64,000 bases of DNA from Bispira polyomma (GCA_965649765.1 OZ287754.1:38316001-38380000), one strand, 5' to 3'. Numbered from the stretch's first letter, positions 2,968-64,000 are shown. Made by a program: numbers and translations. The notes: generated by a model from the sequence alone, not told the origin.

Positions 2968-3890
2968 TCATTTATTTGGACACTGCATGAAATGAGTGAG
3001 AAACCCAAACTTCTCAGGAAATCTGTGCTGACAGAAATGGCATTGGAATGGGCCGTCATTGCCATGGCAACCCCGATGCAGCACAAAAGTGGAGTATTCA
3101 GGGAAGACGATGTTGCAGCTGTGGCAGATGTGGAGCCGACCTTGGGAGGCCAGTAGTTCTAAAATGGCCATGGTGTCCAGGCCTAGGTTCTGGAATATCT
3201 TGAGGAGCTCCGTGCTGAGGGTGGAGGATTTGGGCGCCTCAATACTGGCTGCTCCGACGGCCGCAGCATTAGCCAGGTCCCCGAGGTTTGGGCGGGAGGA
3301 GGTTTTCAGAGGGGTGGTTGTGGGCAGGGTATTGTGGGCCACAGAGAGGCGGGGCATGATACTGGGAATACTACACTGGATGGTGGAGGCGGGACCCATC
3401 TCCCAGGGCTTGGTATTCAGTAACTCCTGTGGTGTCATAGGAGCCACACGAGGGGAGTCCTGGTTACTTTCAGTATCGGTCTCCACGGTGACGGGGGAGG
3501 TGTTTAAAGCCTCTCCGCCGACGGGTTTCGGTATACTGTATTCAGTAAGTGGGCCAGAGATGGGTAAGGGTGTGGAATAAGGGCCATTAGAGCGGCACCT
3601 GACTCCCATGTCGGGTTTACCTGTCAGATTAGGGGTCGTCCCCTCATGTAAAGCAATCATGTACTGCGCCAGCTCTGCAACGCTGGGTTTGACATCCACG
3701 GGGGACGTTAGGTTTGAAGGGAAGCTGGAATGTAAGCTGGTGGCCATCCCCGCTGGTGAGGTGAGAATATCTTGTATAGGAGGCAAGTTTGAAATAGAGC
3801 TGATGGGCTGGAGTACGGGGAAGCCTGGGGCTGGACCTGGGGGGGAATGCATGGGGTCGGGGGAGGTCACAAATGTGGGTGTGCTGCCAC
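2968..3890 (-). CDS. Zinc-finger gene terminal coding exon: Pro/Ser/Thr-rich region plus C-terminal zinc-finger pair
   Basis: Within ORF 2968..3906; acceptor TTGATTACAG at 3891, phase 1; GC-rich relative to flanks; ends in two fingers and a stop. Confidence 0.9.
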
Positions 3891-6800
3891 CTGTAATCAA
3901 CAACATAAAAACATAAATAATTCATTAACATTTTCCAAGCTATATTTTAAGCTATTCATTGGTTCTGATATACTTTATACACGTTATTTCATTACACATT
4001 AAATCATTAACATGGTAAAGAAGTTTAACGAAATAGTTATATTTTAGCGGCTAATTTTAGCCCTTCGTAGTTTACTTTATTAACTTGGCTCATACTGAAA
4101 CATAAATTCCTGATGAAAATTAAAATTTTTCAACTATTTTAAAGTAAAAATAATATATTTTAGAAATGATAAAATACTGAAAATATATAGTTCAGCCAAA
4201 GTTACTTTTAAACAACACAGATGACCTGAACATGGATTGTTAACATAAGTTCATACTGATACATATGTGTCAATTGGCATATTTCACAGAGTGGCATGAT
4301 AACGGTAGTCCTGTTGTTTGTGGATTAATATTGTACTGACAATCAGAGTTTAAGTAGGAGAAAGGCATTATTTCCATGGTGTCTATAACATTTCATGTTG
4401 TTTAGTGAAAATGTTTTGTAGTGTTTTATTATACAAGCTATATATATCTTGGGTATGGCCCAGAATCCAAATCACAATCCAAGATACCGCCTGCCACAAG
4501 CTATTAGTTGACAAAAAATAATTCTTTCTGGAATTAATCATAGTGAAAGTTCAAATATTTGAACTTCTGTTATCTGAATATTACCCTACCCTAATATTAC
4601 CCTAGTAATGTAACGAGAACTACAACCAGTAGTTTCTTGTTTCTCAATGTAGTTTATTACTTTCACTAATCTACAAAATCGTGACCAATTGGCCCTTAAG
4701 ATTATTAATACTAAATTTAAATTCCCTCAACAAAATAGGTCTTATTTCTCAGATATAGATAAGAGAGGTTTTGGGCATACATCCAAGGTTAGCCTCAGAT
4801 CAATAAATAAACTTCAAACGCCTATAACTGTTAATTGTTGTGCCACATTTAATCTTAAAAATATTTCATAGGTAAATCCTGGGCTAAATAGTCAATCTGA
4901 GTTCACAGTGTAACTTTTACACCATGTTTAATATACAGTTGAACCCCTTTAAGTGGAACCTCAAGGGACTAGAAATAATACCTCTACTTAAGCAGGATTT
5001 CCACTTAACAGGGAAAATTTAAAAACAAAAGGCCTCCATGGGACTTCAAATTTGTCTCCACATAACAGGGAAATGACTTAACAGAGTTCTACTTTAAGGA
5101 GTTTGACTGTATGTGCACCTTTAACCTTTCCATGACAACAGATTCCATACACACAGGGGAACAATAAGATCACTGTCATAATTTTAAGGTCGAAGGTTGG
5201 CCTGAGGTCAGACCATGATGACCTTACAAGGCTAGTCTCCTTAATGTGATTTGTGCTAAAATTCTAGTATATACGACCTTCTTCTAACAGCTTGTGTTGA
5301 GTGGAGAGGTGGGGTTTGGAGTTGGATAGAGAATTAGCCTTAAAGGCTTAAACTGTCCCAATAAAGGCTAATATGCCAGCAAGGTGTTAAACATAATACC
5401 ATTTCAGTGTAAACACTTCCCCACTTTTCAGTCTCCTTTTCTTATTTGTGACTGTTTATGTTAATGTGCTACATAATAGCATTCACCCAGAGGGCCTTTC
5501 TGCATTACACAGATCTCACATGTGTTGGGTGGGGAACACTATGTGGCAAAAGTAAAAAAAAACACTAGTTATTCAAAGTATAGAAATCTGCGTAGGATTT
5601 TAGGGGAAAGTCTCTGCACTGATTTACTTCTGATATTGTACAGTCAAACTTGCATAAGACAACCACCCTTGAGAAAATCTTAATAATCGGTCGCTTGTAT
5701 GGGTGAGTCATAGTATGAAAACTTTACGGTACCTTATAAGTTGTCACTAAAGTGGCCGATGATAGATTTTATCAAAATCTTTTTACTTCAAATAAACCAC
5801 TTTTACGCATGTTACTGTCATATAATATTTAATCCTAAACTCAAACTTATTAAAAAAACTTGGTATAAAGCATCATCTATTGGCTTGTGGTTTGAACGCA
5901 TATGTATCCTTTGTCATAAAATGCTATGAAGTGAGCCACAGTGACAAATAACATTACCAGTAATTGTCTAGACACAGAAAGAGGACTAATAGACAAGTCT
6001 ATGGGGTGTTTTATGTGTGGTGTCTAATCCTATTATCTTTTTTGTCCGTTCATATACAAACATGCTTTCCGTCACTAGGGGTGGCTTTTTAAAATTTGTT
6101 TTTATTTGATTTACCCCTCACTTTAGTGGTCCAATCTCTGCAAGAAAAATTAGGGTTGTGCGAGTACACACTGTACATTAGGCTAGTTTTTGGTCAGAAC
6201 TCACAAGAGTTGGTCTCACTAAGTCAATTTTAATGCAAATTGCAAAATTCATGGGGATGTTTTGAAACAGTCGGAACCAATGAGTGAGTGATTACCGGTA
6301 GAAGTTTGACTGTACACTACGGACAAGAAACACTACAGACAGTACACAGTAATTCACTGACCCGCAGCATTCTGTTGCATCAATACACCATGTATTTTCC
6401 TCATGTGAGAGTTCAGGGACTCTCTCAGTTGTGTCTTGAACTGACACCCACTTATAAAACACTGAAAACGCTTGTTACCTGAAAAACCACAAGAAGGTTA
6501 CAAACTCTAACATACTACTTTGGGCATGCACTTAAGTCTAATGTCCACATGATTGGGTTCTACTTATGGTTAACTGCTACTTGTACTAAACTTAAGGCTT
6601 TTAGTTACTAAACATTAGTAACGTAAACACACAATTATGCCGGCGATCAATCACATTGCACAGTAAGCGCTAAAAAAGTCTGATATATTATTATTATATT
6701 ATTATTGCATCAGCAAAATTTTACTTTTACCATATGTACCTAACATTGTCCTTTATTAGTAACAATTTTACTTTAACCATTTTTATATGCTTACATTAAG

Positions 6801-43775: not shown

Positions 43776-44342
43776 AAGTGCTTCTTTTAGGGTAAACTAG
43801 TCCAGTGATCATTATTGTTTTTTGACACACTGAGATCATTGAGCTGTGCAATAAATCAAGTTGCCTTTGTAACAAAAACAAAAGTGTTGATTTGGCCATT
43901 ATTGTTGACACACACAAAACTGTGGCATGAAGTGTCAATTTAGTGAATGATCTCGACATAGAAACTGGAATAAGGAACCTAGATTATATGTCTGCAATGT
44001 GAACTTCAGCTGAAATGAATGGGTCAAGGCTGTTTCTGTGTATAAGTTTGCAGCATTTAAAATTGAAAATTAATTGATAATCATTGAAGTATTTCTGGAA
44101 GTAGTAAAGTTGTGCTTTAAGTCATCTGTGAAAAGTTATACAACTAATGGCTGATTATTTTAAAATTATCTTTATAACAGTAATAATTGTTTTAGAGTAC
44201 TTTTACCTAAAGATAGTGGCAGGGAGTTGAATATTGAAGTATCTTTCCTGTAGTCCAGAATTTTGTGAAATTTGTTAATAACATCAGGTCATAAAAGGAT
44301 CTTTGAATGTTTCAATGATGTGTGAAGCTAGACAATAAGTTT

Positions 44343-44494
44343 GTAAGCGAACGCCCTCAGCGTTCGTGGCCTCAGTTCTGGGGGCCCAGCCTGTTCTACT
44401 ATTATGGGATGGTGTACGACTATATAAGGCTCTCCTTTTCAAATTCTTCCGCCTTTATCGTTTCGTCAGCAGAGCAACAACTAGTTTAAAATTC
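44343..44494 (+). repeat. Split direct repeat A1 (152 bp)
   Basis: Matches 49548-49699 with one difference (CTTCC vs CTCCC). Confidence 0.95.
44421..44427 (+). promoter_or_regulatory. Candidate TATA box in repeat A
   Basis: TATATAA followed by a pyrimidine-rich stretch, ~155 bp upstream of the gag ATG; position-based inference. Confidence 0.5.
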
Positions 44495-44577
44495 TGTTTG
44501 GGTGACATTTTGTTTACATTTTGTTTATGGTGTATGTTTTATAATTTACAATATTTTAGTTGAAACACCATCTAGTC

Positions 44578-45648
44578 ATGCCTGTCTATGATTGTAGTCG
44601 CTGCTTAACCAAACATGAGCGTCCTGTCGGGCGAAATTGCGTTATTGCAGAAGTTTCTGACTCTGTCTCTGGGGAGGAGATCGATGCTGCTTCAGCCACT
44701 GAACCCGCGAACGGTGAGTCAGGCGATACAGTTACCAACGCTATATTACTTCAACTGCACTCGATGAATGAATTAATGGTCAAAATGGACCAGCGGGTTC
44801 AGAGGAATGAGGCAGCATTGGCGGCGAACCTTACCAGTAGTCAGGCAAGTCATCAGGTCCCCGTTCAGGCAAGTAATAGTTTGTTGAATTCTAGTGTTGT
44901 CAGGCCTGCTAGTTGCTCTGCTGACGTAGGTAAAAGCCCATCTATCGCTACGTCCGACAGTATAATTCCTGCCATGGAATTTTTAAACCAGAATGCCCTA
45001 ATACAGCTCCAAGTGGAGCAGAGATTGAAAGATCTGAAAACGTTGAATGAAACCACCTCGCAAGGTAAACTGAAATCCCAGCGTAGTGGGGCGAATGAGG
45101 TATTGGTAAAGAAGGTCACCGCCTGGCCTCAAAATTATGTGCTGACGGGTAGTTCGAAGTCTCGGCCTAGCTACGATGAGTTAACCGTGTTGCAATGGGT
45201 GTGTGGTTTCGCTCGGATCGCTCACGAAGAAAAGTCGAGCGAAGTGAAGAATGCCATGCTGGATTACATGGGGGGTCTTATGGAGGACGCCCAGGATTTC
45301 TCTTGGGAGTCAGCTAAGGCCTGCCATGCAGTCGTATTGACCAGCATGGAGATGGATAAGCTAGGTTGGCTAGAGGTAGATAAAATGGATCGAATTCGAA
45401 GAGCCCATGCTCAGCGCCATGTGTCGAACAGTAGAAATTCCTCTGGGGTTAGTGGACGGCTGGGTAACTTTAGTAGCAGTAAATCTGGCGGTCGCAAAGG
45501 TGCAATGTCTTGTCGCTTTTATCAGGAAGGAAATTGTAGATTTCCCAGCTCGCACAATACTGGAGGTCAGTTCTATAGACATCATTGCGAGACGTGCGAG
45601 GGCAGCCATAAGACTAGTGAATGTCATAAGAAAGGGGCAAAAAACTGA
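44578..45648 (+). CDS. gag: Gag-like protein, 356 aa from the first ATG
   Basis: First ORF of the element; N-terminal C-x2-C-x3-H-x7-C motif, coiled-coil-like segments, C-terminal Cys/His cluster CRFYQEGNC...HHCETCEGSHKTSEC. Confidence 0.85.
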   Translation: MPVYDCSRCLTKHERPVGRNCVIAEVSDSVSGEEIDAASATEPANGESGDTVTNAILLQLHSMNELMVKMDQRVQRNEAALAANLTSSQASHQVPVQASNSLLNSSVVRPASCSADVGKSPSIATSDSIIPAMEFLNQNALIQLQVEQRLKDLKTLNETTSQGKLKSQRSGANEVLVKKVTAWPQNYVLTGSSKSRPSYDELTVLQWVCGFARIAHEEKSSEVKNAMLDYMGGLMEDAQDFSWESAKACHAVVLTSMEMDKLGWLEVDKMDRIRRAHAQRHVSNSRNSSGVSGRLGNFSSSKSGGRKGAMSCRFYQEGNCRFPSSHNTGGQFYRHHCETCEGSHKTSECHKKGAKN

Positions 45649-45668
45649 GGGGCCACTGCGTAGATGCA

Positions 45669-48068
45669 GTGGCTAAAAGGGGTGAGCGAAAAAGTAGGTT
45701 TGTTTATAACACTAAGTTTAAGGATGTACAGTTATTTGAGAGGTCTGTGTGTCAGAAAATGTGTCAATATGTGAAGGGCACCAGACCAGGCTTGAGCTAT
45801 AGCCAGGCGTTGCAAAAGAATGGCCCTGTTCAAAAGTGTGGGTGTGTAAATAGAAGTATTAATTATGTACAGGTAAAACAGGCAAGGCTTGACAAGAGTA
45901 AGGTGAATGTATTACCTAATAAAAGTGACACCTTGGTGAGGCCCTTTGGTACCTCTGTGAGCCAATTGACACCCATTGTGAAGCCGGACTTGTGTGCGAA
46001 ACAAGACAAGGTGAGAACAAAGGAGGTCAATTGTTCGAGATTGAATGGGGGCGAAGCGCAGCGGGTCAATGGGGGTGTGGCTGACCTCCCTCTTGCTAAC
46101 AAGTATGCAGCTTTAATGTCGCTGCCGGTCGATGATAGTGTAAAGATTGAAGAGCCCGTTCGCTTCCTTTCTGTTACTAGTGACAAGCCCATGAACCGAG
46201 GCAAGGGGAGGAGTAAAACTGCTTCCGAAGATAGCCCGGAAAGTTCCGAATGTCCCGATAAATACTCCTGTGCTTTGAAGCAGAAAGTAAATAAGAAAGG
46301 CCTGTTAGTTAAGGCTGCCTCAAATCCTACTTACAGAAAATGGCAAGCTCAAAGTCAATATCCTTATGGATTCACGCCTCTCTCTGCTCTGGGCTGTGAG
46401 ATTGCAGATCATGGTGGGGGAGGGCCCGAACTTTCCATATTGGAAATGCATGACTTAATTCGGGCTGATGGGAGACACAATTATGAAGGGTTGCAAATCC
46501 CTGTTCCCTCTCAATTAAGACCCGAGAGTTGGAAAAAATACCTTAAAAATTACTGGGATTGGCAATTGCCTCTCCTCATAAAGTATGGATTTCCCCTAGA
46601 CGTGGATCATTCAGTAAAACTCGAATCCAGTGAGATTAATCATAAGTCGGCGGAGGAACATCCCCAGCATGTAGAAGCTTATATGCGAGAAGAATGTGAG
46701 TTAGGAGCCATGTTAGGGCCATTTGTCAAACCTCCTATTCCGGGCTTGCATTGTTCCCCCCTTATGACGAGACACAAACCGAATTCAATCAACCGGAGAG
46801 TAATCGTAGACTTGAGTTGGCCTAAAGGGGGGTCGGTTAATGCGGGAGCATCTCCGTCATCTTACTTGGGTGTTGAATTTTTATTGTCTTACCCATCTAT
46901 TGATAATCTCACTAGTGAGGTGGTAAAATTGGGTAGAGGATGTCAGATATTTAAGGTCGACATAAGTAGGGCTTTCCGTCACGTACCCATTGACCCTGGC
47001 GACGTGGACCTCCTAGGTCTAAAGTGGAAGTCCTATTATGTGGACAGATCTCTGCCGTTCGGATATCGTAATGGTAGCACGATTTTTCAGAGAATTTCGG
47101 ATGCCGTGCGATTCATAATGCACTCTGAAAATCATAATGTCCACAACTACATCGACGATTTTTTGGCTCTTTCGGTTCCCAGCAAAATTCAAAAAACTTT
47201 CCTTAGATTGCAAGAATTGCTGCAAGAATTGGGGTTGACAGTAAGTCAGAAAAAATTGGTTCCTCCCAGCACACAGGTTGTCTGCCTGGGAATAGTAGTG
47301 GATACCATTCGAGGTACTACCTCCATCCCGGTTGAAAAATTAAGTGAAATTAAAGATAAGTGTCAGGAATGGAGATCTAAGAAATTTTGCACTAAGAGAG
47401 AGCTCCAGTCTTTACTTGGCTTGTTATTATATATTTCTAAATGTGTAAAGTATGCTCGTGTTTTTTTGAATAGGATGCTCGAGTTGTTAAGAGATAATTA
47501 CGCCAGAAAGTACATTACCATCACCCCTGCATTCAGGCGTGACTTAAACTGGTTCACCACTTTTGCAGAACAGTTCAATGGAGTTTCTTTTTTCATGCCT
47601 AAGCCCATAACTGGTGAGATTGAATTAGATGCCTGCCTTACTGGAATGGGGGGTATTTTTGAGAAACAAGTGTACCAAATTAACATTCCTCCAGAAATGA
47701 GTGAGCTCAATATTGCTTCTTTGGAGATGCTTAACATCCTGGTAGCTCTTAAATTGTGGATTCATAAATGGAGAGGTCGTAGAATATTGGTCAGATGTGA
47801 TAATCAGGCAGTTGTAAGTGTTTTACAGACAGGGCGCACCAGAGATCCGGACTTAGCCACGTATTCCAGGAACATATACATGTTAGCTAGCAAGTTTAAT
47901 ATTGATATTGTTGTCATACATGTGTTGGGTAAAGAAAATAAAATTGCAGATCTGCTGTCAAGATGGACTGAAACTGACGCCAACCATTTGTCGTTATTTA
48001 GGTTAGCTGGGGCTGTCCAGTGGCTGCCTGCTTGCCAGAGTTTATTAAAAGTTAACTCACTTATATAG
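45669..48068 (+). CDS. pol: Reverse transcriptase + RNase H (probably entered by -1 frameshift at 45639-45645)
   Basis: RT motifs RVIVDLS, KVDISRAFRH, LPFG, YIDDF; RNase H motifs LDAC, LEML, CDNQAVV, HVLGKENKIADLLSR, typical of DIRS-order pol. Confidence 0.95.
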   Translation: MAKRGERKSRFVYNTKFKDVQLFERSVCQKMCQYVKGTRPGLSYSQALQKNGPVQKCGCVNRSINYVQVKQARLDKSKVNVLPNKSDTLVRPFGTSVSQLTPIVKPDLCAKQDKVRTKEVNCSRLNGGEAQRVNGGVADLPLANKYAALMSLPVDDSVKIEEPVRFLSVTSDKPMNRGKGRSKTASEDSPESSECPDKYSCALKQKVNKKGLLVKAASNPTYRKWQAQSQYPYGFTPLSALGCEIADHGGGGPELSILEMHDLIRADGRHNYEGLQIPVPSQLRPESWKKYLKNYWDWQLPLLIKYGFPLDVDHSVKLESSEINHKSAEEHPQHVEAYMREECELGAMLGPFVKPPIPGLHCSPLMTRHKPNSINRRVIVDLSWPKGGSVNAGASPSSYLGVEFLLSYPSIDNLTSEVVKLGRGCQIFKVDISRAFRHVPIDPGDVDLLGLKWKSYYVDRSLPFGYRNGSTIFQRISDAVRFIMHSENHNVHNYIDDFLALSVPSKIQKTFLRLQELLQELGLTVSQKKLVPPSTQVVCLGIVVDTIRGTTSIPVEKLSEIKDKCQEWRSKKFCTKRELQSLLGLLLYISKCVKYARVFLNRMLELLRDNYARKYITITPAFRRDLNWFTTFAEQFNGVSFFMPKPITGEIELDACLTGMGGIFEKQVYQINIPPEMSELNIASLEMLNILVALKLWIHKWRGRRILVRCDNQAVVSVLQTGRTRDPDLATYSRNIYMLASKFNIDIVVIHVLGKENKIADLLSRWTETDANHLSLFRLAGAVQWLPACQSLLKVNSLI

Positions 48069-48102
48069 CACCTGTTAGTCATGTTTTCCAGATATACACC
48101 CT

Positions 48103-49077
48103 GTGGGCTTCTCCTTGATGCAGAAAGCTTGTGACAGACTTGAACTGGCCTTCACCCCTGCCACTAACAGAGCCTACAACAGAATGTTCAGGCTGTTCTT
48201 GGCGTTTGGAGCCTTTATGTCTTGGCCTCCTCATAAGGTGACTGTGTTATATCTCCTAGCTTATTTAGAGTTCTTAACGTTTAATGGGGTGTCGGCGAGT
48301 CTTGTTCTTAATCATCTTTCTGCCATTAAGGCAAAGTGTGTCCTCTTCCATATATCTGTAGATGCTTTTTCTGATAAAAGAATTACCTATTATAATAAAG
48401 CTTTGGCAATGCATAGACCATTGCAAGTCAAACTTAAGTCAATTTTCGACCTCCAGTTGCTCAGGTCTCTCATTGTGAAATGTAACAGCACTTACATGGG
48501 TCAAATTTTTAAAGCAGTTTATCTTGTCAGTTTCTTTTCGTTTCTGAGGCTGTCTAACCTCTGTGCTCATTCGGTTGCTGCTTACTCTCCTCTTAAGCAG
48601 CTTGCGAGGGCGGATGTCCTTTTCAAGCCAGGGTATGCTGTCCTCATTGTTAAGTGGTCTAAAACCCTTCAAAACAATAATGCTGTTCGCTTGCTCACCA
48701 TACCAGCTTTAACCAATTCCATTCTATGTCCGGTTCAAGCTGTAAAAAACATACTTGCTATTTCTCCCAAAGGGAAAGATCTGCCCTTGTTTCAATTTAA
48801 GCAGAATGCCAGTTGGATTCCCCTTACTGATACTAGGGTTCGCAGGCATCTTAAGAATGTCTTACTAATGCTCGGCCCGCAGTACTCTGGCTTGACCTTT
48901 CACGCTTTCAGGCGTTCAGGTGCCACGTTTGCCTTTAACAATAATGTCACAATTCAGGACATCCAAAGGCATGGCACCTGGACGTCTGATTGTGTCTGGC
49001 GTTACATTTCTGATTCTGCTAATGCTGGTACCCAGGTTGCCGATTCCTTCAAAACTATTCTACAAGATACCTACTAG
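48103..49077 (+). CDS. Tyrosine recombinase (lambda-integrase family); first ATG at 48118
   Basis: Catalytic residues FLRLSN (R), WSKT (K), HAFRR (H-x-x-R), GTW (W), WRY (Y); N-terminal T...Y..F..F core-binding-like helices. Confidence 0.95.
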   Translation: MGFSLMQKACDRLELAFTPATNRAYNRMFRLFLAFGAFMSWPPHKVTVLYLLAYLEFLTFNGVSASLVLNHLSAIKAKCVLFHISVDAFSDKRITYYNKALAMHRPLQVKLKSIFDLQLLRSLIVKCNSTYMGQIFKAVYLVSFFSFLRLSNLCAHSVAAYSPLKQLARADVLFKPGYAVLIVKWSKTLQNNNAVRLLTIPALTNSILCPVQAVKNILAISPKGKDLPLFQFKQNASWIPLTDTRVRRHLKNVLLMLGPQYSGLTFHAFRRSGATFAFNNNVTIQDIQRHGTWTSDCVWRYISDSANAGTQVADSFKTILQDTY

Positions 49078-49089
49078 AATTTTGGGGTT

Positions 49090-49547
49090 TGGTGGCATGA
49101 CTGTAAGATCTAGTCAGTTTAACATTGCAAGTACCATATTAATTACCTGTAAACTAAATGAATTAACTGTGGGCATAAGGTCCCCCTGTATTATTAAAGT
49201 ACATATTGTACTCATCTAATTAAAGTTGCACTTAAAACCTAAGTCAAACTTTAATTTGTTAATCTTCAAAGTCATATTTAAGTTTCAACTTAAATCTAGA
49301 TTTCTAAATTCAACTTCTTTATTAGTTAGGGTTACTTAAACTCATTCTGGTTTAACCTAAAGTCCTAAACTCAATTGAGTTAAGGGGACCTTATGCTCAC
49401 ACAAGGTGTATATCATGTCAAAGAACTGTACATAAATATCTTAGTAATAGTAGCTGTAAATATAAAATAAAATATATTTAACCGCAGTATTGTCTTTCTA
49501 TGACTTGTTCGGTTAATTCAGTTTCTCAGGCTACCCCGAGGAACTGT
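49090..49547 (+). repeat. Split direct repeat B1 (458 bp)
   Basis: Matches 50429-50886 with one difference seen (TCTAGA vs TCTAAA); contains AATAAA at 49466. Confidence 0.95.
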
Positions 49548-49699
49548 GTAAGCGAACGCCCTCAGCGTTCGTGGCCTCAGTTCTGGGGGCCCAGCCTGTT
49601 CTACTATTATGGGATGGTGTACGACTATATAAGGCTCTCCTTTTCAAATTCTCCCGCCTTTATCGTTTCGTCAGCAGAGCAACAACTAGTTTAAAATTC
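49548..49699 (+). repeat. Split direct repeat A2
   Basis: Directly abuts B1, recreating the end-to-start (circle) junction AACTGT|GTAAGC. Confidence 0.95.
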
Positions 49700-50428
49700 C
49701 CACCCTCCACTTACCCGTTTTAATTGGAATGTGGCTACTATTAGTATGAATATTACTATGGATGTCTTAAGAAATATTGCATATATTGTTGTCAAATGCT
49801 ACTGTAGTTAGTTATGTATTTTCAGACAAATGGGAGTCAGAATAACTTTGTCAAATGCCTCACTGCCTTGTTGGAGTCCACCACGGGGACCTGCCGCTTG
49901 TGTGTAACATCAAGGGATTGTGTCATCAGTTTGTAGAACAGTCTGGCAGACGAGTGTCTGGGCCGGTGTAATATGTCTGTGGTGGACTCTGTATAAAATA
50001 TTATAATTTACATTATACTTTTATTTCAAAGTTTACCTTCTTTATACAAGTTTACATTACATGTGTCAATTCATTGGATAAGGGGTCGTATTATTCGATC
50101 ACGTAAGGGCGTTCCGGTTTGAGCTAGATGTAATGTAGCATAGAGGGGGCTAAATGTATACAGAAGTTTCTTTTAGTAACCATAATGTCGTACTTAACTG
50201 GGGCGTATACATTATTGTTTAGATGTATTGGGCAGGATGAGCTTGACATTGATTTTTAGTTCCTCAATCATAGTACATGAACTTTTTATAACATTTTACA
50301 TCTTTTACAAATTATTCATTGTTACTTTTGTTATTAATATTTTAAATATCAGTCGCAACTGAGTTGCTACTGGGGTTCTGTTGTACTATGGTTGCGGTTC
50401 TGTGATATGCATGATAGAGTATGCCGGG

Positions 50429-50886
50429 TGGTGGCATGACTGTAAGATCTAGTCAGTTTAACATTGCAAGTACCATATTAATTACCTGTAAACTAAATGA
50501 ATTAACTGTGGGCATAAGGTCCCCCTGTATTATTAAAGTACATATTGTACTCATCTAATTAAAGTTGCACTTAAAACCTAAGTCAAACTTTAATTTGTTA
50601 ATCTTCAAAGTCATATTTAAGTTTCAACTTAAATCTAAATTTCTAAATTCAACTTCTTTATTAGTTAGGGTTACTTAAACTCATTCTGGTTTAACCTAAA
50701 GTCCTAAACTCAATTGAGTTAAGGGGACCTTATGCTCACACAAGGTGTATATCATGTCAAAGAACTGTACATAAATATCTTAGTAATAGTAGCTGTAAAT
50801 ATAAAATAAAATATATTTAACCGCAGTATTGTCTTTCTATGACTTGTTCGGTTAATTCAGTTTCTCAGGCTACCCCGAGGAACTGT
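50429..50886 (+). repeat. Split direct repeat B2 (element 3' end)
   Basis: Copy of B1; array sequence resumes at 50887. Confidence 0.95.
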
Positions 50887-56833: not shown

Positions 56834-57635
56834 AAGTGCTTCTTTTAGGGTAAACTAGTCCAGTGATCATTATTGTTTTTTGACACACTGAGATCATTGA
56901 GCTGTGCAATAAATCAAGTTGCCTTTGTAACAAAAACAAAAGTGTTGATTTGGCCATTATTGTTGACACACACAAAACTGTGGCATGAAGTGTCAATTTA
57001 GTGAATGATCTCGACATAGAAACTGGAATAAGGAACCTAGATTATATGTCTGCAATGTGAACTTCAGCTGAAATGAATGGGTCAAGGCTGTTTCTGTGTA
57101 TAAGTTTGCAGCATTTAAAATTGAAAATTAATTGATAATCATTGAAGTATTTCTGGAAGTAGTAAAGTTGTGCTTTAAGTCATCTGTGAAAAGCTATACA
57201 ACTAATGGCTGATTATTTTTAAATTATCTTTATAACAGTAATAATTGTTTTAGAGTACTTTTACCTAAAGATAGTGGCAGGGAGTTGAATATTGAAGTAT
57301 CTTTCCTGTAGTCCAGAATTTTGTGAAATTTGTTAATAACATCAGGTCATAAAAGGATCTTTGAATGTTTCAATGATGTGTGAAGCTAGACAATAAGTTT
57401 GTAAGCGAACGCCCTCAGCGTTCGTGGCCTCAGTTCTGGGGGCCCAGCCTGTTCTACTATTATGGGATGGTGTACGACTATATAAGGCTCTCCTTTTCAA
57501 ATTCTTCCGCCTTTATCGTTTCGTCAGCAGAGCAACAACTAGTTTAAAATTCTGTTTGGGTGACATTTTGTTTACATTTTGTTTATGGTGTATGTTTTAT
57601 AATTTACAATATTTTAGTTGAAACACCATCTAGTC

Positions 57636-58706
57636 ATGCCTGTCTATGATTGTAGTCGCTGCTTAACCAAACATGAGCGTCCTGTCGGGCGAAATTGCGT
57701 TATTGCAGAAGTTTCTGACTCTGTCTCTGGGGAGGAGATCGATGCTGCTTCAGCCACTGAACCCGCGAACGGTGAGTCAGGCGATACAGTTACCAACGCT
57801 ATATTACTTCAACTGCACTCGATGAATGAATTAATGGTCAAAATGGACCAGCGGGTTCAGAGGAATGAGGCAGCATTGGCGGCGAACCTTACCAGTAGTC
57901 AGGCAAGTCATCAGGTCCCCGTTCAGGCAAGTAATAGTTTGTTGAATTCTAGTGTTGTCAGGCCTGCTAGTTGCTCTGCTGACGTAGGTAAAAGCCCATC
58001 TATCGCTACGTCCGACAGTATAATTCCTGCCATGGAATTTTTAAACCAGAATGCCCTAATACAGCTCCAAGTGGAGCAGAGATTGAAAGATCTGAAAACG
58101 TTGAATGAAACCACCTCGCAAGGTAAACTGAAATCCCAGCGTAGTGGGGCGAATGAGGTATTGGTAAAGAAGGTCACCGCCTGGCCTCAAAATTATGTGC
58201 TGACGGGTAGTTCGAAGTCTCGGCCTAGCTACGATGAGTTAACCGTGTTGCAATGGGTGTGTGGTTTCGCTCGGATCGCTCACGAAGAAAAGTCGAGCGA
58301 AGTGAAGAATGCCATGCTGGATTACATGGGGGGTCTTATGGAGGACGCCCAGGATTTCTCTTGGGAGTCAGCTAAGGCCTGCCATGCAGTCGTATTGACC
58401 AGCATGGAGATGGATAAGCTAGGTTGGCTAGAGGTAGATAAAATGGATCGAATTCGAAGAGCCCATGCTCAGCGCCATGTGTCGAACAGTAGAAATTCCT
58501 CTGGGGTTAGTGGACGGCTGGGTAACTTTAGTAGCAGTAAATCTGGCGGTCGCAAAGGTGCAATGTCTTGTCGCTTTTATCAGGAAGGAAATTGTAGATT
58601 TCCCAGCTCGCACAATACTGGAGGTCAGTTCTATAGACATCATTGCGAGACGTGCGAGGGCAGCCATAAGACTAGTGAATGTCATAAGAAAGGGGCAAAA
58701 AACTGA
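57636..58706 (+). CDS. gag: Gag-like protein, copy 2
   Basis: Translation identical to copy 1. Confidence 0.85.
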   Translation: MPVYDCSRCLTKHERPVGRNCVIAEVSDSVSGEEIDAASATEPANGESGDTVTNAILLQLHSMNELMVKMDQRVQRNEAALAANLTSSQASHQVPVQASNSLLNSSVVRPASCSADVGKSPSIATSDSIIPAMEFLNQNALIQLQVEQRLKDLKTLNETTSQGKLKSQRSGANEVLVKKVTAWPQNYVLTGSSKSRPSYDELTVLQWVCGFARIAHEEKSSEVKNAMLDYMGGLMEDAQDFSWESAKACHAVVLTSMEMDKLGWLEVDKMDRIRRAHAQRHVSNSRNSSGVSGRLGNFSSSKSGGRKGAMSCRFYQEGNCRFPSSHNTGGQFYRHHCETCEGSHKTSECHKKGAKN

Positions 58707-58726
58707 GGGGCCACTGCGTAGATGCA

Positions 58727-61126
58727 GTGGCTAAAAGGGGTGAGCGAAAAAGTAGGTTTGTTTATAACACTAAGTTTAAGGATGTACAGTTATTTGAGAG
58801 GTCTGTGTGTCAGAAAATGTGTCAATATGTGAAGGGCACCAGACCAGGCTTGAGCTATAGCCAGGCGTTGCAAAAGAATGGCCCCGTTCAAAAGTGTGGG
58901 TGTGTAAATAGAAGTATTAATTATGTACAGGTAAAACAGGCAAGGCTTGACAAGAGTAAGGTGAATGTATTACCTAATAAAAGTGACACCTTGGTGAGGC
59001 CCTTTGGTACCTCTGTGAGCCAATTGACACCCATTGTGAAGCCGGACTTGTGTGCGAAACAAGACAAGGTGAGAACAAAGGAGGTCAATTGTTCGAGATT
59101 GAATGGGGGCGAAGCGCAGCGGGTCAATGGGGGTGTGGCTGACCTCCCTCTTGCTAACAAGTATGCAGCTTTAATGTCGCTGCCGGTCGATGATAGTGTA
59201 AAGATTGAAGAGCCCGTTCGCTTCCTTTCTGTTACTAGTGACAAGCCCATGAACCGAGGCAAGGGGAGGAGTAAAACTGCTTCCGAAGATAGCCCGGAAA
59301 GTTCCGAATGTCCCGATAAATACTCCTGTGCTTTGAAGCAGAAAGTAAATAAGAAAGGCCTGTTAGTTAAGGCTGCCTCAAATCCTACTTACAGAAAATG
59401 GCAAGCTCAAAGTCAATATCCTTATGGATTCACGCCTCTCTCTGCTCTGGGCTGTGAGATTGCAGATCATGGTGGGGGAGGGCCCGAACTTTCCATATTG
59501 GAAATGCATGACTTAATTCGGGCTGATGGGAGACACAATTATGAAGGGTTGCAAATCCCTGTTCCCTCTCAATTAAGACCCGAGAGTTGGAAAAAATACC
59601 TTAAAAATTACTGGGATTGGCAATTGCCTCTCCTCATAAAGTATGGATTTCCCCTAGACGTGGATCATTCAGTAAAACTCGAATCCAGTGAGATTAATCA
59701 TAAGTCGGCGGAGGAACATCCCCAGCATGTAGAAGCTTATATGCGAGAAGAATGTGAGTTAGGAGCCATGTTAGGGCCATTTGTCAAACCTCCTATTCCG
59801 GGCTTGCATTGTTCCCCCCTTATGACGAGACACAAACCGAATTCAATCAACCGGAGAGTAATCGTAGACTTGAGTTGGCCTAAAGGGGGGTCGGTTAATG
59901 CGGGAGCATCTCCGTCATCTTACTTGGGTGTTGAATTTTTATTGTCTTACCCATCTATTGATAATCTCACTAGTGAGGTGGTAAAATTGGGTAGAGGATG
60001 TCAGATATTTAAGGTCGACATAAGTAGGGCTTTCCGTCACGTACCCATTGACCCTGGCGACGTGGACCTCCTAGGTCTAAAGTGGAAGTCCTATTATGTG
60101 GACAGATCTCTGCCGTTCGGATATCGTAATGGTAGCACGATTTTTCAGAGAATTTCGGATGCCGTGCGATTCATAATGCACTCTGAAAATCATAATGTCC
60201 ACAACTACATCGACGATTTTTTGGCTCTTTCGGTTCCCAGCAAAATTCAAAAAACTTTCCTTAGATTGCAAGAATTGCTGCAAGAATTGGGGTTGACAGT
60301 AAGTCAGAAAAAATTGGTTCCTCCCAGCACACAGGTTGTCTGCCTGGGAATAGTAGTGGATACCATTCGAGGTACTACCTCCATCCCGGTTGAAAAATTA
60401 AGTGAAATTAAAGATAAGTGTCAGGAATGGAGATCTAAGAAATTTTGCACTAAGAGAGAGCTCCAGTCTTTACTTGGCTTGTTATTATATATTTCTAAAT
60501 GTGTAAAGTATGCTCGTGTTTTTTTGAATAGGATGCTCGAGTTGTTAAGAGATAATTACGCCAGAAAGTACATTACCATCACCCCTGCATTCAGGCGTGA
60601 CTTAAACTGGTTCACCACTTTTGCAGAACAGTTCAATGGAGTTTCTTTTTTCATGCCTAAGCCCATAACTGGTGAGATTGAATTAGATGCCTGCCTTACT
60701 GGAATGGGGGGTATTTTTGAGAAACAAGTGTACCAAATTAACATTCCTCCAGAAATGAGTGAGCTCAATATTGCTTCTTTGGAGATGCTTAACATCCTGG
60801 TAGCTCTTAAATTGTGGATTCATAAATGGAGAGGTCGTAGAATATTGGTCAGATGTGATAATCAGGCAGTTGTAAGTGTTTTACAGACAGGGCGCACCAG
60901 AGATCCGGACTTAGCCACGTATTCCAGGAACATATACATGTTAGCTAGCAAGTTTAATATTGATATTGTTGTCATACATGTGTTGGGTAAAGAAAATAAA
61001 ATTGCAGATCTGCTGTCAAGATGGACTGAAACTGACGCCAACCATTTGTCGTTATTTAGGTTAGCTGGGGCTGTCCAGTGGCTGCCTGCTTGCCAGAGTT
61101 TATTAAAAGTTAACTCACTTATATAG
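58727..61126 (+). CDS. pol: Reverse transcriptase + RNase H, copy 2
   Basis: Translation identical to copy 1. Confidence 0.95.
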   Translation: MAKRGERKSRFVYNTKFKDVQLFERSVCQKMCQYVKGTRPGLSYSQALQKNGPVQKCGCVNRSINYVQVKQARLDKSKVNVLPNKSDTLVRPFGTSVSQLTPIVKPDLCAKQDKVRTKEVNCSRLNGGEAQRVNGGVADLPLANKYAALMSLPVDDSVKIEEPVRFLSVTSDKPMNRGKGRSKTASEDSPESSECPDKYSCALKQKVNKKGLLVKAASNPTYRKWQAQSQYPYGFTPLSALGCEIADHGGGGPELSILEMHDLIRADGRHNYEGLQIPVPSQLRPESWKKYLKNYWDWQLPLLIKYGFPLDVDHSVKLESSEINHKSAEEHPQHVEAYMREECELGAMLGPFVKPPIPGLHCSPLMTRHKPNSINRRVIVDLSWPKGGSVNAGASPSSYLGVEFLLSYPSIDNLTSEVVKLGRGCQIFKVDISRAFRHVPIDPGDVDLLGLKWKSYYVDRSLPFGYRNGSTIFQRISDAVRFIMHSENHNVHNYIDDFLALSVPSKIQKTFLRLQELLQELGLTVSQKKLVPPSTQVVCLGIVVDTIRGTTSIPVEKLSEIKDKCQEWRSKKFCTKRELQSLLGLLLYISKCVKYARVFLNRMLELLRDNYARKYITITPAFRRDLNWFTTFAEQFNGVSFFMPKPITGEIELDACLTGMGGIFEKQVYQINIPPEMSELNIASLEMLNILVALKLWIHKWRGRRILVRCDNQAVVSVLQTGRTRDPDLATYSRNIYMLASKFNIDIVVIHVLGKENKIADLLSRWTETDANHLSLFRLAGAVQWLPACQSLLKVNSLI

Positions 61127-61160
61127 CACCTGTTAGTCATGTTTTCCAGATATACACCCT

Positions 61161-62135
61161 GTGGGCTTCTCCTTGATGCAGAAAGCTTGTGACAGACTTG
61201 AACTGGCCTTCACCCCTGCCACTAACAGAGCCTATAACAGAATGTTCAGGCTGTTCTTGGCGTTTGGAGCCTTTATGTCTTGGCCTCCTCATAAGGTGAC
61301 TGTGTTATATCTCCTAGCTTATTTAGAGTTCTTAACGTTTAATGGGGTGTCGGCGAGTCTTGTTCTTAATCATCTTTCTGCCATTAAGGCAAAGTGTGTC
61401 CTCTTCCATATATCTGTAGATGCTTTTTCTGATAAAAGAATTACCTATTATAATAAAGCTTTGGCAATGCATAGACCATTGCAAGTCAAACTTAAGTCAA
61501 TTTTCGACCTCCAGTTGCTCAGGTCTCTCATTGTGAAATGTAACAGCACTTACATGGGTCAAATTTTTAAAGCAGTTTATCTTGTCAGTTTCTTTTCGTT
61601 TCTGAGGCTGTCTAACCTCTGTGCTCATTCGGTTGCTGCTTACTCTCCTCTTAAGCAGCTTGCGAGGGCGGATGTCCTTTTCAAGCCAGGGTATGCTGTC
61701 CTCATTGTTAAGTGGTCTAAAACCCTTCAAAACAATAATGCTGTTCGCTTGCTCACCATACCAGCTTTAACCAATTCCATTCTATGTCCGGTTCAAGCTG
61801 TAAAAAACATACTTGCTATTTCTCCCAAAGGGAAAGATCTGCCCTTGTTTCAATTTAAGCAGAATGCCAGTTGGATTCCCCTTACTGATACTAGGGTTCG
61901 CAGGCATCTTAAGAATGTCTTACTAATGCTCGGCCCGCAGTACTCTGGCTTGACCTTTCACGCTTTCAGGCGTTCAGGTGCCACGTTTGCCTTTAACAAT
62001 AATGTCACAATTCAGGACATCCAAAGGCATGGCACCTGGACGTCTGATTGTGTCTGGCGTTACATTTCTGATTCTGCTAATGCTGGTACCCAGGTTGCCG
62101 ATTCCTTCAAAACTATTCTACAAGATACCTACTAG
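61161..62135 (+). CDS. Tyrosine recombinase, copy 2
   Basis: Translation identical to copy 1. Confidence 0.95.
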   Translation: MGFSLMQKACDRLELAFTPATNRAYNRMFRLFLAFGAFMSWPPHKVTVLYLLAYLEFLTFNGVSASLVLNHLSAIKAKCVLFHISVDAFSDKRITYYNKALAMHRPLQVKLKSIFDLQLLRSLIVKCNSTYMGQIFKAVYLVSFFSFLRLSNLCAHSVAAYSPLKQLARADVLFKPGYAVLIVKWSKTLQNNNAVRLLTIPALTNSILCPVQAVKNILAISPKGKDLPLFQFKQNASWIPLTDTRVRRHLKNVLLMLGPQYSGLTFHAFRRSGATFAFNNNVTIQDIQRHGTWTSDCVWRYISDSANAGTQVADSFKTILQDTY

Positions 62136-64000
62136 AATTTTGGGGTTTGGTGGCATGACTGTAAGATCTAGTCAGTTTAACATTGCAAGTACCATATTAA
62201 TTACCTGTAAACTAAATGAATTAACTGTGGGCATAAGGTCCCCCTGTATTATTAAAGTACATATTGTACTCATCTAATTAAAGTTGCACTTAAAACCTAA
62301 GTCAAACTTTAATTTGTTAATCTTCAAAGTCATATTTAAGTTTCAACTTAAATCTAGATTTCTAAATTCAACTTCTTTATTAGTTAGGGTTACTTAAACT
62401 CATTCTGGTTTAACCTAAAGTCCTAAACTCAATTGAGTTAAGGGGACCTTATGCTCACACAAGGTGTATATCATGTCAAAGAACTGTACATAAATATCTT
62501 AGTAATAGTAGCTGTAAATATAAAATAAAATATATTTAACCGCAGTATTGTCTTTCTATGACTTGTTCGGTTAATTCAGTTTCTCAGGCTACCCCGAGGA
62601 ACTGTGTAAGCGAACGCCCTCAGCATTCGTGGCCTCAATTCTGGGGGCCCAGCCTGTTCTACTATTATGGGATGGTGTACGACTATATAAGGCTCTCCTT
62701 TTCAAATTCTCCCGCCTTTATCGTTTCGTCAGCAGAGCAACAACTAGTTTAAAATTCCCACCCTCCACTTACCCGTTTTAATTGGAATGTGGCTACTATT
62801 AGTATGAATATTACTATGGATGTCTTAAGAAATATTGCATATATTGTTGTCAAATGCTACTGTAGTTAGTTATGTATTTTCAGACAAATGGGAGTCAGAA
62901 TAACTTTGTCAAATGCCTCACTGCCTTGTTGGAGTCCACCACGGGGACCTGCCGCTTGTGTGTAACATCAAGGGATTGTGTCATCAGTTTGTAGAACAGT
63001 CTGGCAGACGAGTGTCTGGGCCGGTGTAATATGTCTGTGGTGGACTCTGTATAAAATATTATAATTTACATTATACTTTTATTTCAAAGTTTACCTTCTT
63101 TATACAAGTTTACATTACATGTGTCAATTCATTGGATAAGGGGTCGTATTATTCGATCACGTAAGGGCGTTCCGGTTTGAGCTAGATGTAATGTAGCATA
63201 GAGGGGGCTAAATGTATACAGAAGTTTCTTTTAGCAACCATAATGTCGTACTTAACTGGGGCGTATACATTATTGTTTAGATGTATTGGGCAGGATGAGC
63301 TTGACATTGATTTTTAGTTCCTCAATCATAGTACATGAACTTTTTATAACATTTTACATCTTTTACAAATTATTCATTGTTACTTTTGTTATTAATATTT
63401 TAAATATCAGTCGCAACTGAGTTGCTACTGGGGTTCTGTTGTACTATGGTTGCGGTTCTGTGATATGCATGATAGAGTATGCCGGGTGGTGGCATGACTG
63501 TAAGATCTAGTCAGTTTAACATTGCAAGTACCATATTAATTACCTGTAAACTAAATGAATTAACTGTGGGCATAAGGTCCCCCTGTATTATTAAAGTACA
63601 TATTGTACTCATCTAATTAAAGTTGCACTTAAAACCTAAGTCAAACTTTAATTTGTTAATCCTCAAAGTCATATTTAAGTTTCAACTTAAATCTAAATTT
63701 CTAAATTCAACTTCTTTATTAGTTAGGGTTACTTAAACTCATTCTGGTTTAACCTAAAGTCCTAAACTCAATTGAGTTAAGGGGACCTTATGCTCACACA
63801 AGGTGTATATCATGTCAAAGAACTGTACATAAATATCTTAGTAATAGTAGCTGTAAATATAAAATAAAATATATTTAACCGCAGTATTGTCTTTCTATGA
63901 CTTGTTCGGTTAATTCAGTTTCTCAGGCTACCCCGAGGAACTGTCTATGTGTGTATTGCTAATAACAATTGAATAGACAGTGGAAAATTATATGTTTCAA

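What the first reader, a model, noticed from the sequence alone, without database searches (positions are those of the whole stretch)
45627..45674. Textbook -1 ribosomal frameshift signal joining gag and pol
Seen: gag ends GCA AAA AAC TGA, giving the slippery heptamer A_AAA_AAC (45639-45645) in the correct phase. Six nt later is the hairpin GCCACTGC-GTAGAT-GCAGTGGC (45652-45673; 8 Watson-Crick pairs, extendable by G-U). The pol frame is -1 relative to gag and is open only from the TAA at 45627-45629, so the short overlap brackets the heptamer. The ORF-track start of pol is a GTG inside the hairpin. Established: A_AAA_AAC plus a 3' structure is the MMTV/HTLV gag-pro type signal. Inference: pol is made as a Gag-Pol fusion of roughly 1160 aa. 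Same signal at 58697-58731.
Basis: partly seen in the sequence, partly recalled or inferred. Interest (0 to 1): 0.7.

Follow-up and report, generated by a model that had tools for sequence, protein, structure and literature searches.

The report
Conserved ribosome-slip signal in Ngaro retrotransposons
A jumping gene in an animal genome has a slippery sequence and an RNA hairpin between its coat gene and its copying-enzyme gene, kept in dozens of related families, so ribosomes likely slip back one base there to make a fused protein, as retroviruses do.

Summary
The site lies in a young, intact Ngaro-type tyrosine-recombinase (YR) retrotransposon (44342-50886), not a retrovirus. gag ends A_AAA_AAC-UGA, a 9-bp hairpin follows 5-6 nt later, and pol is in the -1 frame. 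In this genome 138 of 146 copies with a callable gag end have an in-phase slippery heptamer, and 27 of 29 families (RT identity 45-87%) have exact A_AAA_AAC. The hairpin stays in place while its sequence changes, with one clear C-G/G-C swap. No conserved splice acceptor or AUG exists for pol. Distant relatives have an in-frame UGA-CUA at the same point, which suggests readthrough. A -1 frameshift giving a 1163-aa Gag-Pol is the best reading (about 0.85); no RNA or ribosome data were available. The YR gene is probably made by splicing from gag. The mechanism is textbook. I found no open-access paper describing it for Ngaro gag-pol, but the two founding papers could not be read.

The parts
44342..50886 (+). 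Ngaro-type YR retrotransposon, copy 1 (6545 bp), inserted in a tRNA-Glu/tRNA-Ile tandem array unit
   Evidence: empty-site joint 44341 to 50886 in a DNA contig
44342..44494 (+). split direct repeat A1
   Evidence: 99.3% to A2
44578..45648 (+). gag-like ORF, 356 aa, C-terminal CCCH + CCHC-like zinc fingers, ends K-N-stop
45062..45070 (+). predicted phase-1 splice donor AAG|GTAAAC in gag (intron would start at 45065)
   Evidence: no RNA
45639..45645 (+). slippery heptamer A_AAA_AAC, followed directly by the gag stop TGA (45646-45648)
45651..45674 (+). predicted stimulatory hairpin (8 Watson-Crick pairs + G-U, 6-nt loop), spacer 5-6 nt
45630..48068 (+). pol ORF in the -1 frame: about 280-aa linker, RT, RNase H; no methyltransferase, protease or integrase found
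48074..48093 (+). predicted phase-1 splice acceptor ...TTTTCCAG|AT before YR (intron would end at 48091)
   Evidence: no RNA
48079..49077 (+). tyrosine recombinase ORF
   Evidence: 16 of 17 aligned members hit PF00589, the window's own protein does not reach E 0.1
49090..49547 (+). split direct repeat B1
49547..49699 (+). split direct repeat A2
50429..50886 (+). split direct repeat B2, after a 729-nt spacer without a long ORF
57400..63944 (+). copy 2 of the element (offset 13,058; 99.9% identical; same site in the array unit)
58697..58732 (+). identical heptamer and hairpin in copy 2

Best explanation
This is a slippery heptamer with a downstream hairpin at the gag/pol junction of an Ngaro-type retrotransposon, and it likely makes a fraction of ribosomes shift one base back to produce a 1163-aa Gag-Pol fusion. 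Shown: the signal's anatomy, its phase and its conservation. Inferred: most ribosomes stop at UGA and release the 356-aa Gag. Some pause at the hairpin with tRNA-Lys and tRNA-Asn on AAA AAC, re-pair on AAA AAA, and read on through L-R-G-H-C into the linker, RT and RNase H. This would set the Gag:RT ratio and bring RT into the Gag particle. No protease is encoded, so the fusion would probably stay uncleaved or be cut by host enzymes.
For: (1) An in-phase X_XXY_YYZ heptamer lies within 45 nt of the gag stop in 138 of 146 own-genome copies with a callable gag end (133 A_AAA_AAC, 5 A_AAA_AAU); 27 of 29 such families have exact A_AAA_AAC. (2) 68 of 78 intact-pol copies have pol in -1 and open across the heptamer; 12 of 15 families. 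(3) The constraint is on nucleotides: the codon before K-N encodes five amino acids (GCA 11, TCA 6, ACA 5, CCA 3, TTA 2) yet ends in A in all 27 representatives; gag codon usage gives 0.053 per family for NNA-AAA-AAC. (4) The 45 nt after the heptamer fold at or below -13 kcal/mol in 24 of 27 representatives, against 3 of 50 other AAAAAAC sites in the same elements; z < -2 in 22 of 27; top 5% of the element's windows in 24 of 27. (5) In 12 short-hairpin families one pair is C-G in 7 and G-C in 5; covariation score 0.194, reached by 0 of 500 shuffles; slid controls 0.038 or less. (6) The best phase-1 acceptor at the pol 5' end has a median score of -1.0 at scattered positions, against 11.1 for YR acceptors. 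The first AUG lies 19-166 codons in among the 12 representatives with long open frames. (7) pN/pS < 1 in the -1 frame before the first AUG in 10 of 11 pairs; closest pair pS 0.35, pN 0.01. (8) 10 of 120 database homologues start with the site's -1-frame peptide KK[LR]x2-3C, 20 times the linker rate. (9) Distant relatives have an in-frame UGA-CUA at the same junction. A_AAA_AAC is among the most shift-prone heptamers on mammalian ribosomes (PMC5009743, passage).
Against: There is no RNA, ribosome or protein evidence. 10 of 78 intact-pol copies do not fit, and in family F16 four of four intact-pol copies are +1 or 0, apparently because a C-run in the stem varies from 5 to 10 C. Covariation in the 14 long-hairpin families does not beat shuffles (104 of 500). 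The clear swap in the short group may be one evolutionary event, since the five G-C families form one clade. Stems are weak in F07, F19 and F29. Representatives were chosen for having the heptamer, and three were swapped by hand for modal copies. A Met at codon 40-44 is shared by the nearest families F01, F03, F04 and F08. The CAG in the hairpin's 3' arm (45667-45669) is in the phase that would match the gag donor; it is the best phase-1 AG in 8 of 27 representatives but scores only -7.9 to +4.6. The pN/pS values are uncorrected and rest on 27 codons.
Confidence: 0.85

Rival explanations
1. Pol is made by splicing: the conserved phase-1 donor in gag joins an acceptor at the start of pol (for example the CAG in the hairpin's 3' arm), giving Gag(N)-Pol. 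The heptamer is incidental.
For: A strong conserved donor exists (120 of 121 copies). The stem CAG is in the matching phase in the short-hairpin families. An earlier scan note proposes splice-based expression of both enzyme genes in a protist Ngaro element (not checked here).
Against: That CAG lacks a pyrimidine tract and scores -7.2 in the window. In long-hairpin families the stem's AG is in another phase. Best phase-1 sites lie anywhere from -23 to +154. Splicing does not explain the invariant heptamer or the pol frame staying open across it.
Confidence: 0.05
2. Pol is translated on its own, from ATG 45759 or the GTG in the hairpin, by reinitiation, internal entry or a subgenomic RNA. The hairpin has another job, such as packaging.
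For: A Met at codon 40-44 is shared by four near families. The linker is only weakly conserved.
Against: The first AUG ranges from codon 19 to 166 across families, and a conserved R-x-x-Y-N/G motif lies upstream of it in the window's family. pN/pS < 1 upstream of the AUG. The fixed heptamer-to-stem spacing is left unexplained.
Confidence: 0.07
3. The heptamer is a by-product of a required K-N end on Gag, or works by polymerase slippage on the A-run rather than by ribosome slippage.
For: All families end the zinc-finger region in x-K-N. A few copies carry one extra A in the run (F05, F21, L103).
Against: Synonymous alternatives (AAG, or a non-A third base) are absent from 27 representatives, with a chance of 0.053 each. 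A6 is short for polymerase slippage (recalled). A 3' RNA hairpin at 5-9 nt fits ribosome pausing.
Confidence: 0.03

Closest known systems
Ngaro retrotransposons (order DIRS)
   Same: gag, RT/RNase H, YR in that order; no methyltransferase; split direct repeats A1-[ORFs]-B1A2B2 (definitions in PMC8547959, PMC4157794, PMC3266345; passages read).
   Different: There is a 729-nt spacer between A2 and B2. The review quoted in PMC13003380 proposes a -1 frameshift for the YR ORF. Here YR does not overlap pol (10-nt gap, +1 frame), its frame relative to pol varies between families, and the frameshift signal is at gag/pol.
-1 programmed frameshift signals of retroviruses (MMTV gag-pro; HTLV gag-pro and astrovirus ORF1a/1b recalled)
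   Same: A_AAA_AAC heptamer, 5-9 nt spacer, 3' RNA structure, downstream ORF in -1 without its own start.
   Different: MMTV gag-pro uses a pseudoknot (PMC5009743, passage); here a simple hairpin with a variable loop and no partner for the loop in the next 86 nt. The gag stop follows the heptamer directly. No protease is encoded. That HTLV and astrovirus use simple stem-loops is recalled, not read.
Animal LTR retrotransposons with pol in -1
   Same: 28 of 51 animal retroelements in a 2003 survey had pol in -1, many with heptamers (as summarised in PMC5009743, passage).
   Different: Those are DDE-integrase LTR elements. The held first 300,000 characters of that review do not contain 'DIRS' or 'tyrosine recombinase'.

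Membership tests
-1 programmed ribosomal frameshift signal | X_XXY_YYZ heptamer in the zero-frame phase | tested here: met
   A_AAA_AAC at 45639-45645; 138 of 146 copies
-1 programmed ribosomal frameshift signal | 3' RNA structure 5-9 nt downstream | tested here: met
   covariation clear in the short-hairpin group only (not significant)
-1 programmed ribosomal frameshift signal | downstream ORF in -1, open across the heptamer, without a conserved start of its own | tested here: met
   68 of 78 intact-pol copies; first AUG at codon 19-166
-1 programmed ribosomal frameshift signal | measured transframe product that depends on heptamer and structure | not testable with these tools
   needs a reporter, ribosome profiling or proteomics
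MMTV gag-pro type signal | H-type pseudoknot stimulator | tested here: not met
   loop sequence varies between families; no exact complement of the loop in the next 86 nt; no pseudoknot-aware folding was run, so this is a simple check
Ngaro retrotransposons | ORF order gag, RT/RH, YR | tested here: met
Ngaro retrotransposons | no methyltransferase domain | tested here: met
   pol ends about 30 aa after RNase H; no MT family hit
Ngaro retrotransposons | split direct repeats A1-ORFs-B1A2B2 | tested here: met
   with a 729-nt A2-B2 spacer
Ngaro retrotransposons | tyrosine recombinase instead of DDE integrase | tested here: met
   PF00589 in 16 of 17 members, best E 3e-7; H267, R270 and Y301 at least 90% conserved; no PDB sequence match at E < 0.3
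Ngaro retrotransposons | RT phylogeny within the clade of named Ngaro references | not tested
   no named reference sequences were on hand; the tree holds unnamed relatives only

The most novel reading that the evidence does not exclude
This animal Ngaro clade runs a full retrovirus-like expression programme from one RNA: Gag by default, Gag-Pol by a hairpin-stimulated -1 frameshift at A_AAA_AAC, and a Gag(N)-recombinase fusion by splicing out the rest of gag and all of pol. The Gag-Pol recoding module is swappable in Ngaro evolution (-1 frameshift here, UGA-CUA readthrough in a sister lineage). This would move the frameshift from pol/YR, where a review placed it, to gag/pol, and give a natural series of 27 covarying stimulators to test.
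Probability: 0.6. Interest if true: 0.6.

Novelty: new member of a known kind. Interest (0 to 1): 0.42.

Why it matters
How YR retrotransposons translate their start-less second and third ORFs has been proposed but, in the papers I could search, not shown. This gives a precise, testable signal for RT expression in a large and recently active animal Ngaro clade. With the splice signals it gives a complete model for all three proteins. In practice, annotators should not read the gag/pol frame break as decay, and should not start pol at the GTG in the hairpin. The mechanism itself is textbook, so surprise is moderate.

Tried and rejected
RNA evidence: no RNA holder listed. Three runs of unrecorded kind (contigs, one study) cover the element and show the empty site; no joint from 45064 to pol or YR is listed. 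Neither result is evidence on expression. tRNA-array targeting was rejected: 0 of 20 other copies of the family have array sequence in their 140-340 nt left flank. Viral contigs: 145 pattern matches, none a relative. Metagenome loci: 75 of 80 gave no gag-end profile hit, so they say nothing on the junction. PDB search of the YR alignment gave nothing useful. Papers not held: Poulter and Butler 2015, Goodwin and Poulter 2004, and the id I recalled for the 2003 gag-pol recoding survey; any of these may already describe the gag/pol frameshift. Literature searches: (one search returned irrelevant substring matches; one search was for the readthrough motif). Supplements were not read. Rows dropped before counts: loci L001-L010 (short) not used; 33 of 191 loci removed as duplicates; 12 of 158 had no callable gag end; F29 was left out of both structure alignments. 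The earlier claim of an intron-less genomic copy was not tested.

Full report
Context. The window is from a 1.04-Gb genome in 75 contigs, taken to be an animal's. From about 12.2 kb on it is a tandem array of 1.3-kb units carrying tRNA-Glu(CTC) and tRNA-Ile(AAT). Two copies of a 6545-bp element interrupt it (44342-50886 and 57400-63944). Each has three ORFs: a 356-aa gag-like protein with C-terminal zinc fingers, an 812-codon RT/RNase H frame and a tyrosine recombinase. Split direct repeats lie as A1-ORFs-B1-A2-spacer-B2. With no methyltransferase found, this matches the Ngaro definition in PMC8547959, PMC4157794 and PMC3266345 (passages read). The two copies sit at the same base of the array unit and differ at 9 positions over 7.9 kb. 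They probably arose by duplication of an array block, or by assembly, and count as one case.

Observation. The hairpin folds at -17.4 kcal/mol, with z from -3.4 to -5.7 on short stretches and -2.1 on 141 nt. The predicted fusion is 356 + 807 = 1163 aa.

Conservation of the heptamer. I fetched relatives from the same genome with the window's RT and four database homologues as queries. That gave 191 loci, 158 after removing duplicates, in 33 families; RT identity among representatives is 45-87%. A gag-end profile called the gag stop in 146 copies of 29 families. 138 of 146 have an in-phase X_XXY_YYZ within 45 nt of the stop: 133 A_AAA_AAC and 5 A_AAA_AAU, one of the five probably a miscall. The eight misses carry visible indels or substitutions at the site. 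27 of 29 families have exact A_AAA_AAC. Of 78 copies with an intact pol frame and a called gag end, 68 have pol in -1 and open across the heptamer. The main exception is family F16, where a C-run inside the stem varies from 5 to 10 C and puts pol in +1 or 0 in its four intact-pol copies. The constraint is on bases, not on protein: the codon before K-N encodes Ala, Ser, Thr, Pro or Leu but always ends in A, and gag codon usage gives 0.053 per family for NNA-AAA-AAC. Families are related, so these are not 27 independent trials, but synonymous sites between families are largely saturated (pS 0.5-0.9).

Conservation of the hairpin. In 27 representatives (chosen for the heptamer; three swapped by hand for modal copies) the next 45 nt fold at or below -13 kcal/mol in 24, against 3 of 50 other AAAAAAC sites in the same elements. 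z < -2 in 22, and 24 rank in the top 5% of their element's windows. There are two stem types. Twelve short-hairpin families keep 90% of cells paired, with one pair C-G in 7 and G-C in 5; the covariation score 0.194 is reached by 0 of 500 shuffles. The five G-C families form one clade, so this may be a single event. Fourteen long-hairpin families keep a G-C-U-G-Y-Y/G-G-C-A-G-C core, but their covariation does not beat shuffles (104 of 500). The loop varies freely and has no exact complement in the next 86 nt of the window, so the stimulator looks like a simple stem-loop, unlike the MMTV gag-pro pseudoknot (PMC5009743, passage).

Alternatives for pol. The first AUG lies 19 to 166 codons after the heptamer in the 12 representatives with long open frames, although the nearest families share a Met at codon 40-44. 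Before that AUG the -1 frame shows pN/pS < 1 in 10 of 11 pairs, with pS 0.35 and pN 0.01 for the closest (27 codons, uncorrected). A weight matrix trained on the YR acceptors gives a median of -1.0 for the best phase-1 AG near the pol start, at scattered positions, against 11.1 for the YR acceptors scored leave-one-out. The one recurring candidate, the CAG in the stem's 3' arm, scores -7.2 in the window. Ten of 120 database homologues, at most 64% identical to the window's pol, begin with KK[LR]x2-3C, the -1-frame reading of the signal, at 20 times the linker rate. The signal therefore probably extends beyond this genome, though no DNA was seen for them.

A natural replacement. Among 80 metagenome loci, five gave a gag-end hit; none has a heptamer and all five end gag with UGA-CUA-C. 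In L125 and L129 the same frame runs on into the conserved motif before RT. In L114, L116 and L117 it stays open for 111-221 codons and the pol core lies in another frame. L186 has UGA-CUAG between two open stretches. These rows lie on the other side of a 100/99 branch from the 27 frameshift families; L186 is a long branch. UGA-CUA alone supports 1.5% readthrough in human cells (PMC4132726, abstract and passages). Two unrelated recoding signals at one junction point to selection for a Gag-Pol fusion. The scan noted readthrough in diatom-like Ngaro elements before.

The third gene. YR starts 10 nt after the pol stop, in +1 here and in any frame in other families. An AG|GT(A/G) donor in codon phase 1 lies just before gag's S-Q/K-R-G-G motif in 120 of 121 copies and 25 of 25 families, never in phases 0 or 2, against 15 of 175 background windows. 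A YAG in phase 1 precedes YR in 146 of 147 copies and 32 of 33 families (65 and 42 copies in the other phases). In the window the intron would be 45065-48091, fusing 162 Gag residues to YR. I found this before looking, but the scan had already reported it several times in this genome. It matters here because a review quoted in PMC13003380 (passage) proposed frameshifting for YR; in this clade the frameshift signal is at gag/pol instead.

Literature. Searches turned up no paper describing a slippery site at Ngaro gag/pol. Passages read on this point: PMC3783388, PMC6681497, PMC8547959, PMC3266345, PMC7192593, PMC4157794, PMC2632668, PMC12440569, PMC13003380, PMC5009743 and bioRxiv 10.1101/2022.06.16.496473; the rest were seen as listings only. 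Goodwin and Poulter 2004 and Poulter and Butler 2015 are not held and may already propose it. Scan look-ups for 'frameshift' in this genome and for this sequence were empty; one note on a fungal Ngaro element favours frameshifting there.

Verdict. A real, conserved -1 frameshift signal of a known kind in an Ngaro retrotransposon; mechanism inferred, not measured (0.85). No RNA run was listed. New member of a known kind; interest 0.42.

Noticed in passing
window 45065-48091: Predicted phase-1 intron from mid-gag to just before YR would give a Gag(1-162)-YR fusion; donor in 120 of 121 and acceptor in 146 of 147 copies. Noted before by the scan in this genome.
   Followed up: yes
L125:863-868, L129:2438-2443, L114, L116, L117, L186 (metagenome loci, as oriented): Distant Ngaro-like relatives end gag with UGA-CUA and continue in frame, a candidate readthrough in place of the frameshift.
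   Followed up: partly
L011, L012, L013, L015, L018, L020, L021, L023, L025: 9 of 20 other copies of the window's family are 5.0-5.2 kb forms A1-ORFs-B lacking A2 and the spacer, as B1/B2 recombination would give. This may explain the 'repeat-less' elements in earlier scan notes.
   Followed up: partly
L071-L075, L082, L104, L106 (family F16): A C-run in the stimulatory stem varies from 5 to 10 C between copies and changes the pol frame; replication slippage or assembly error.
   Followed up: partly
window 12.2-57.4 kb: Tandem array of about 30 units of 1276-1308 nt with tRNA-Glu(CTC) on + and tRNA-Ile(AAT) on -, 55 genes called; some 1276-nt units lack a called tRNA-Ile. The unit after each element carries a 12-nt segment that the unit before lacks.
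   Followed up: no
window 49700-50428: 729-nt spacer between A2 and B2 with no ORF over 56 codons; not part of the textbook B1A2B2 layout.
   Followed up: partly
L021, L061, L083, L103, L251: Single copies in which an indel has put part of gag and pol into one open frame of about 900-1219 codons.
   Followed up: no
window 2968-3921 (-): Host exon ending in two C2H2-like zinc fingers, resembling an Ikaros/Hunchback C-terminus (recalled; no Pfam hit).
   Followed up: no
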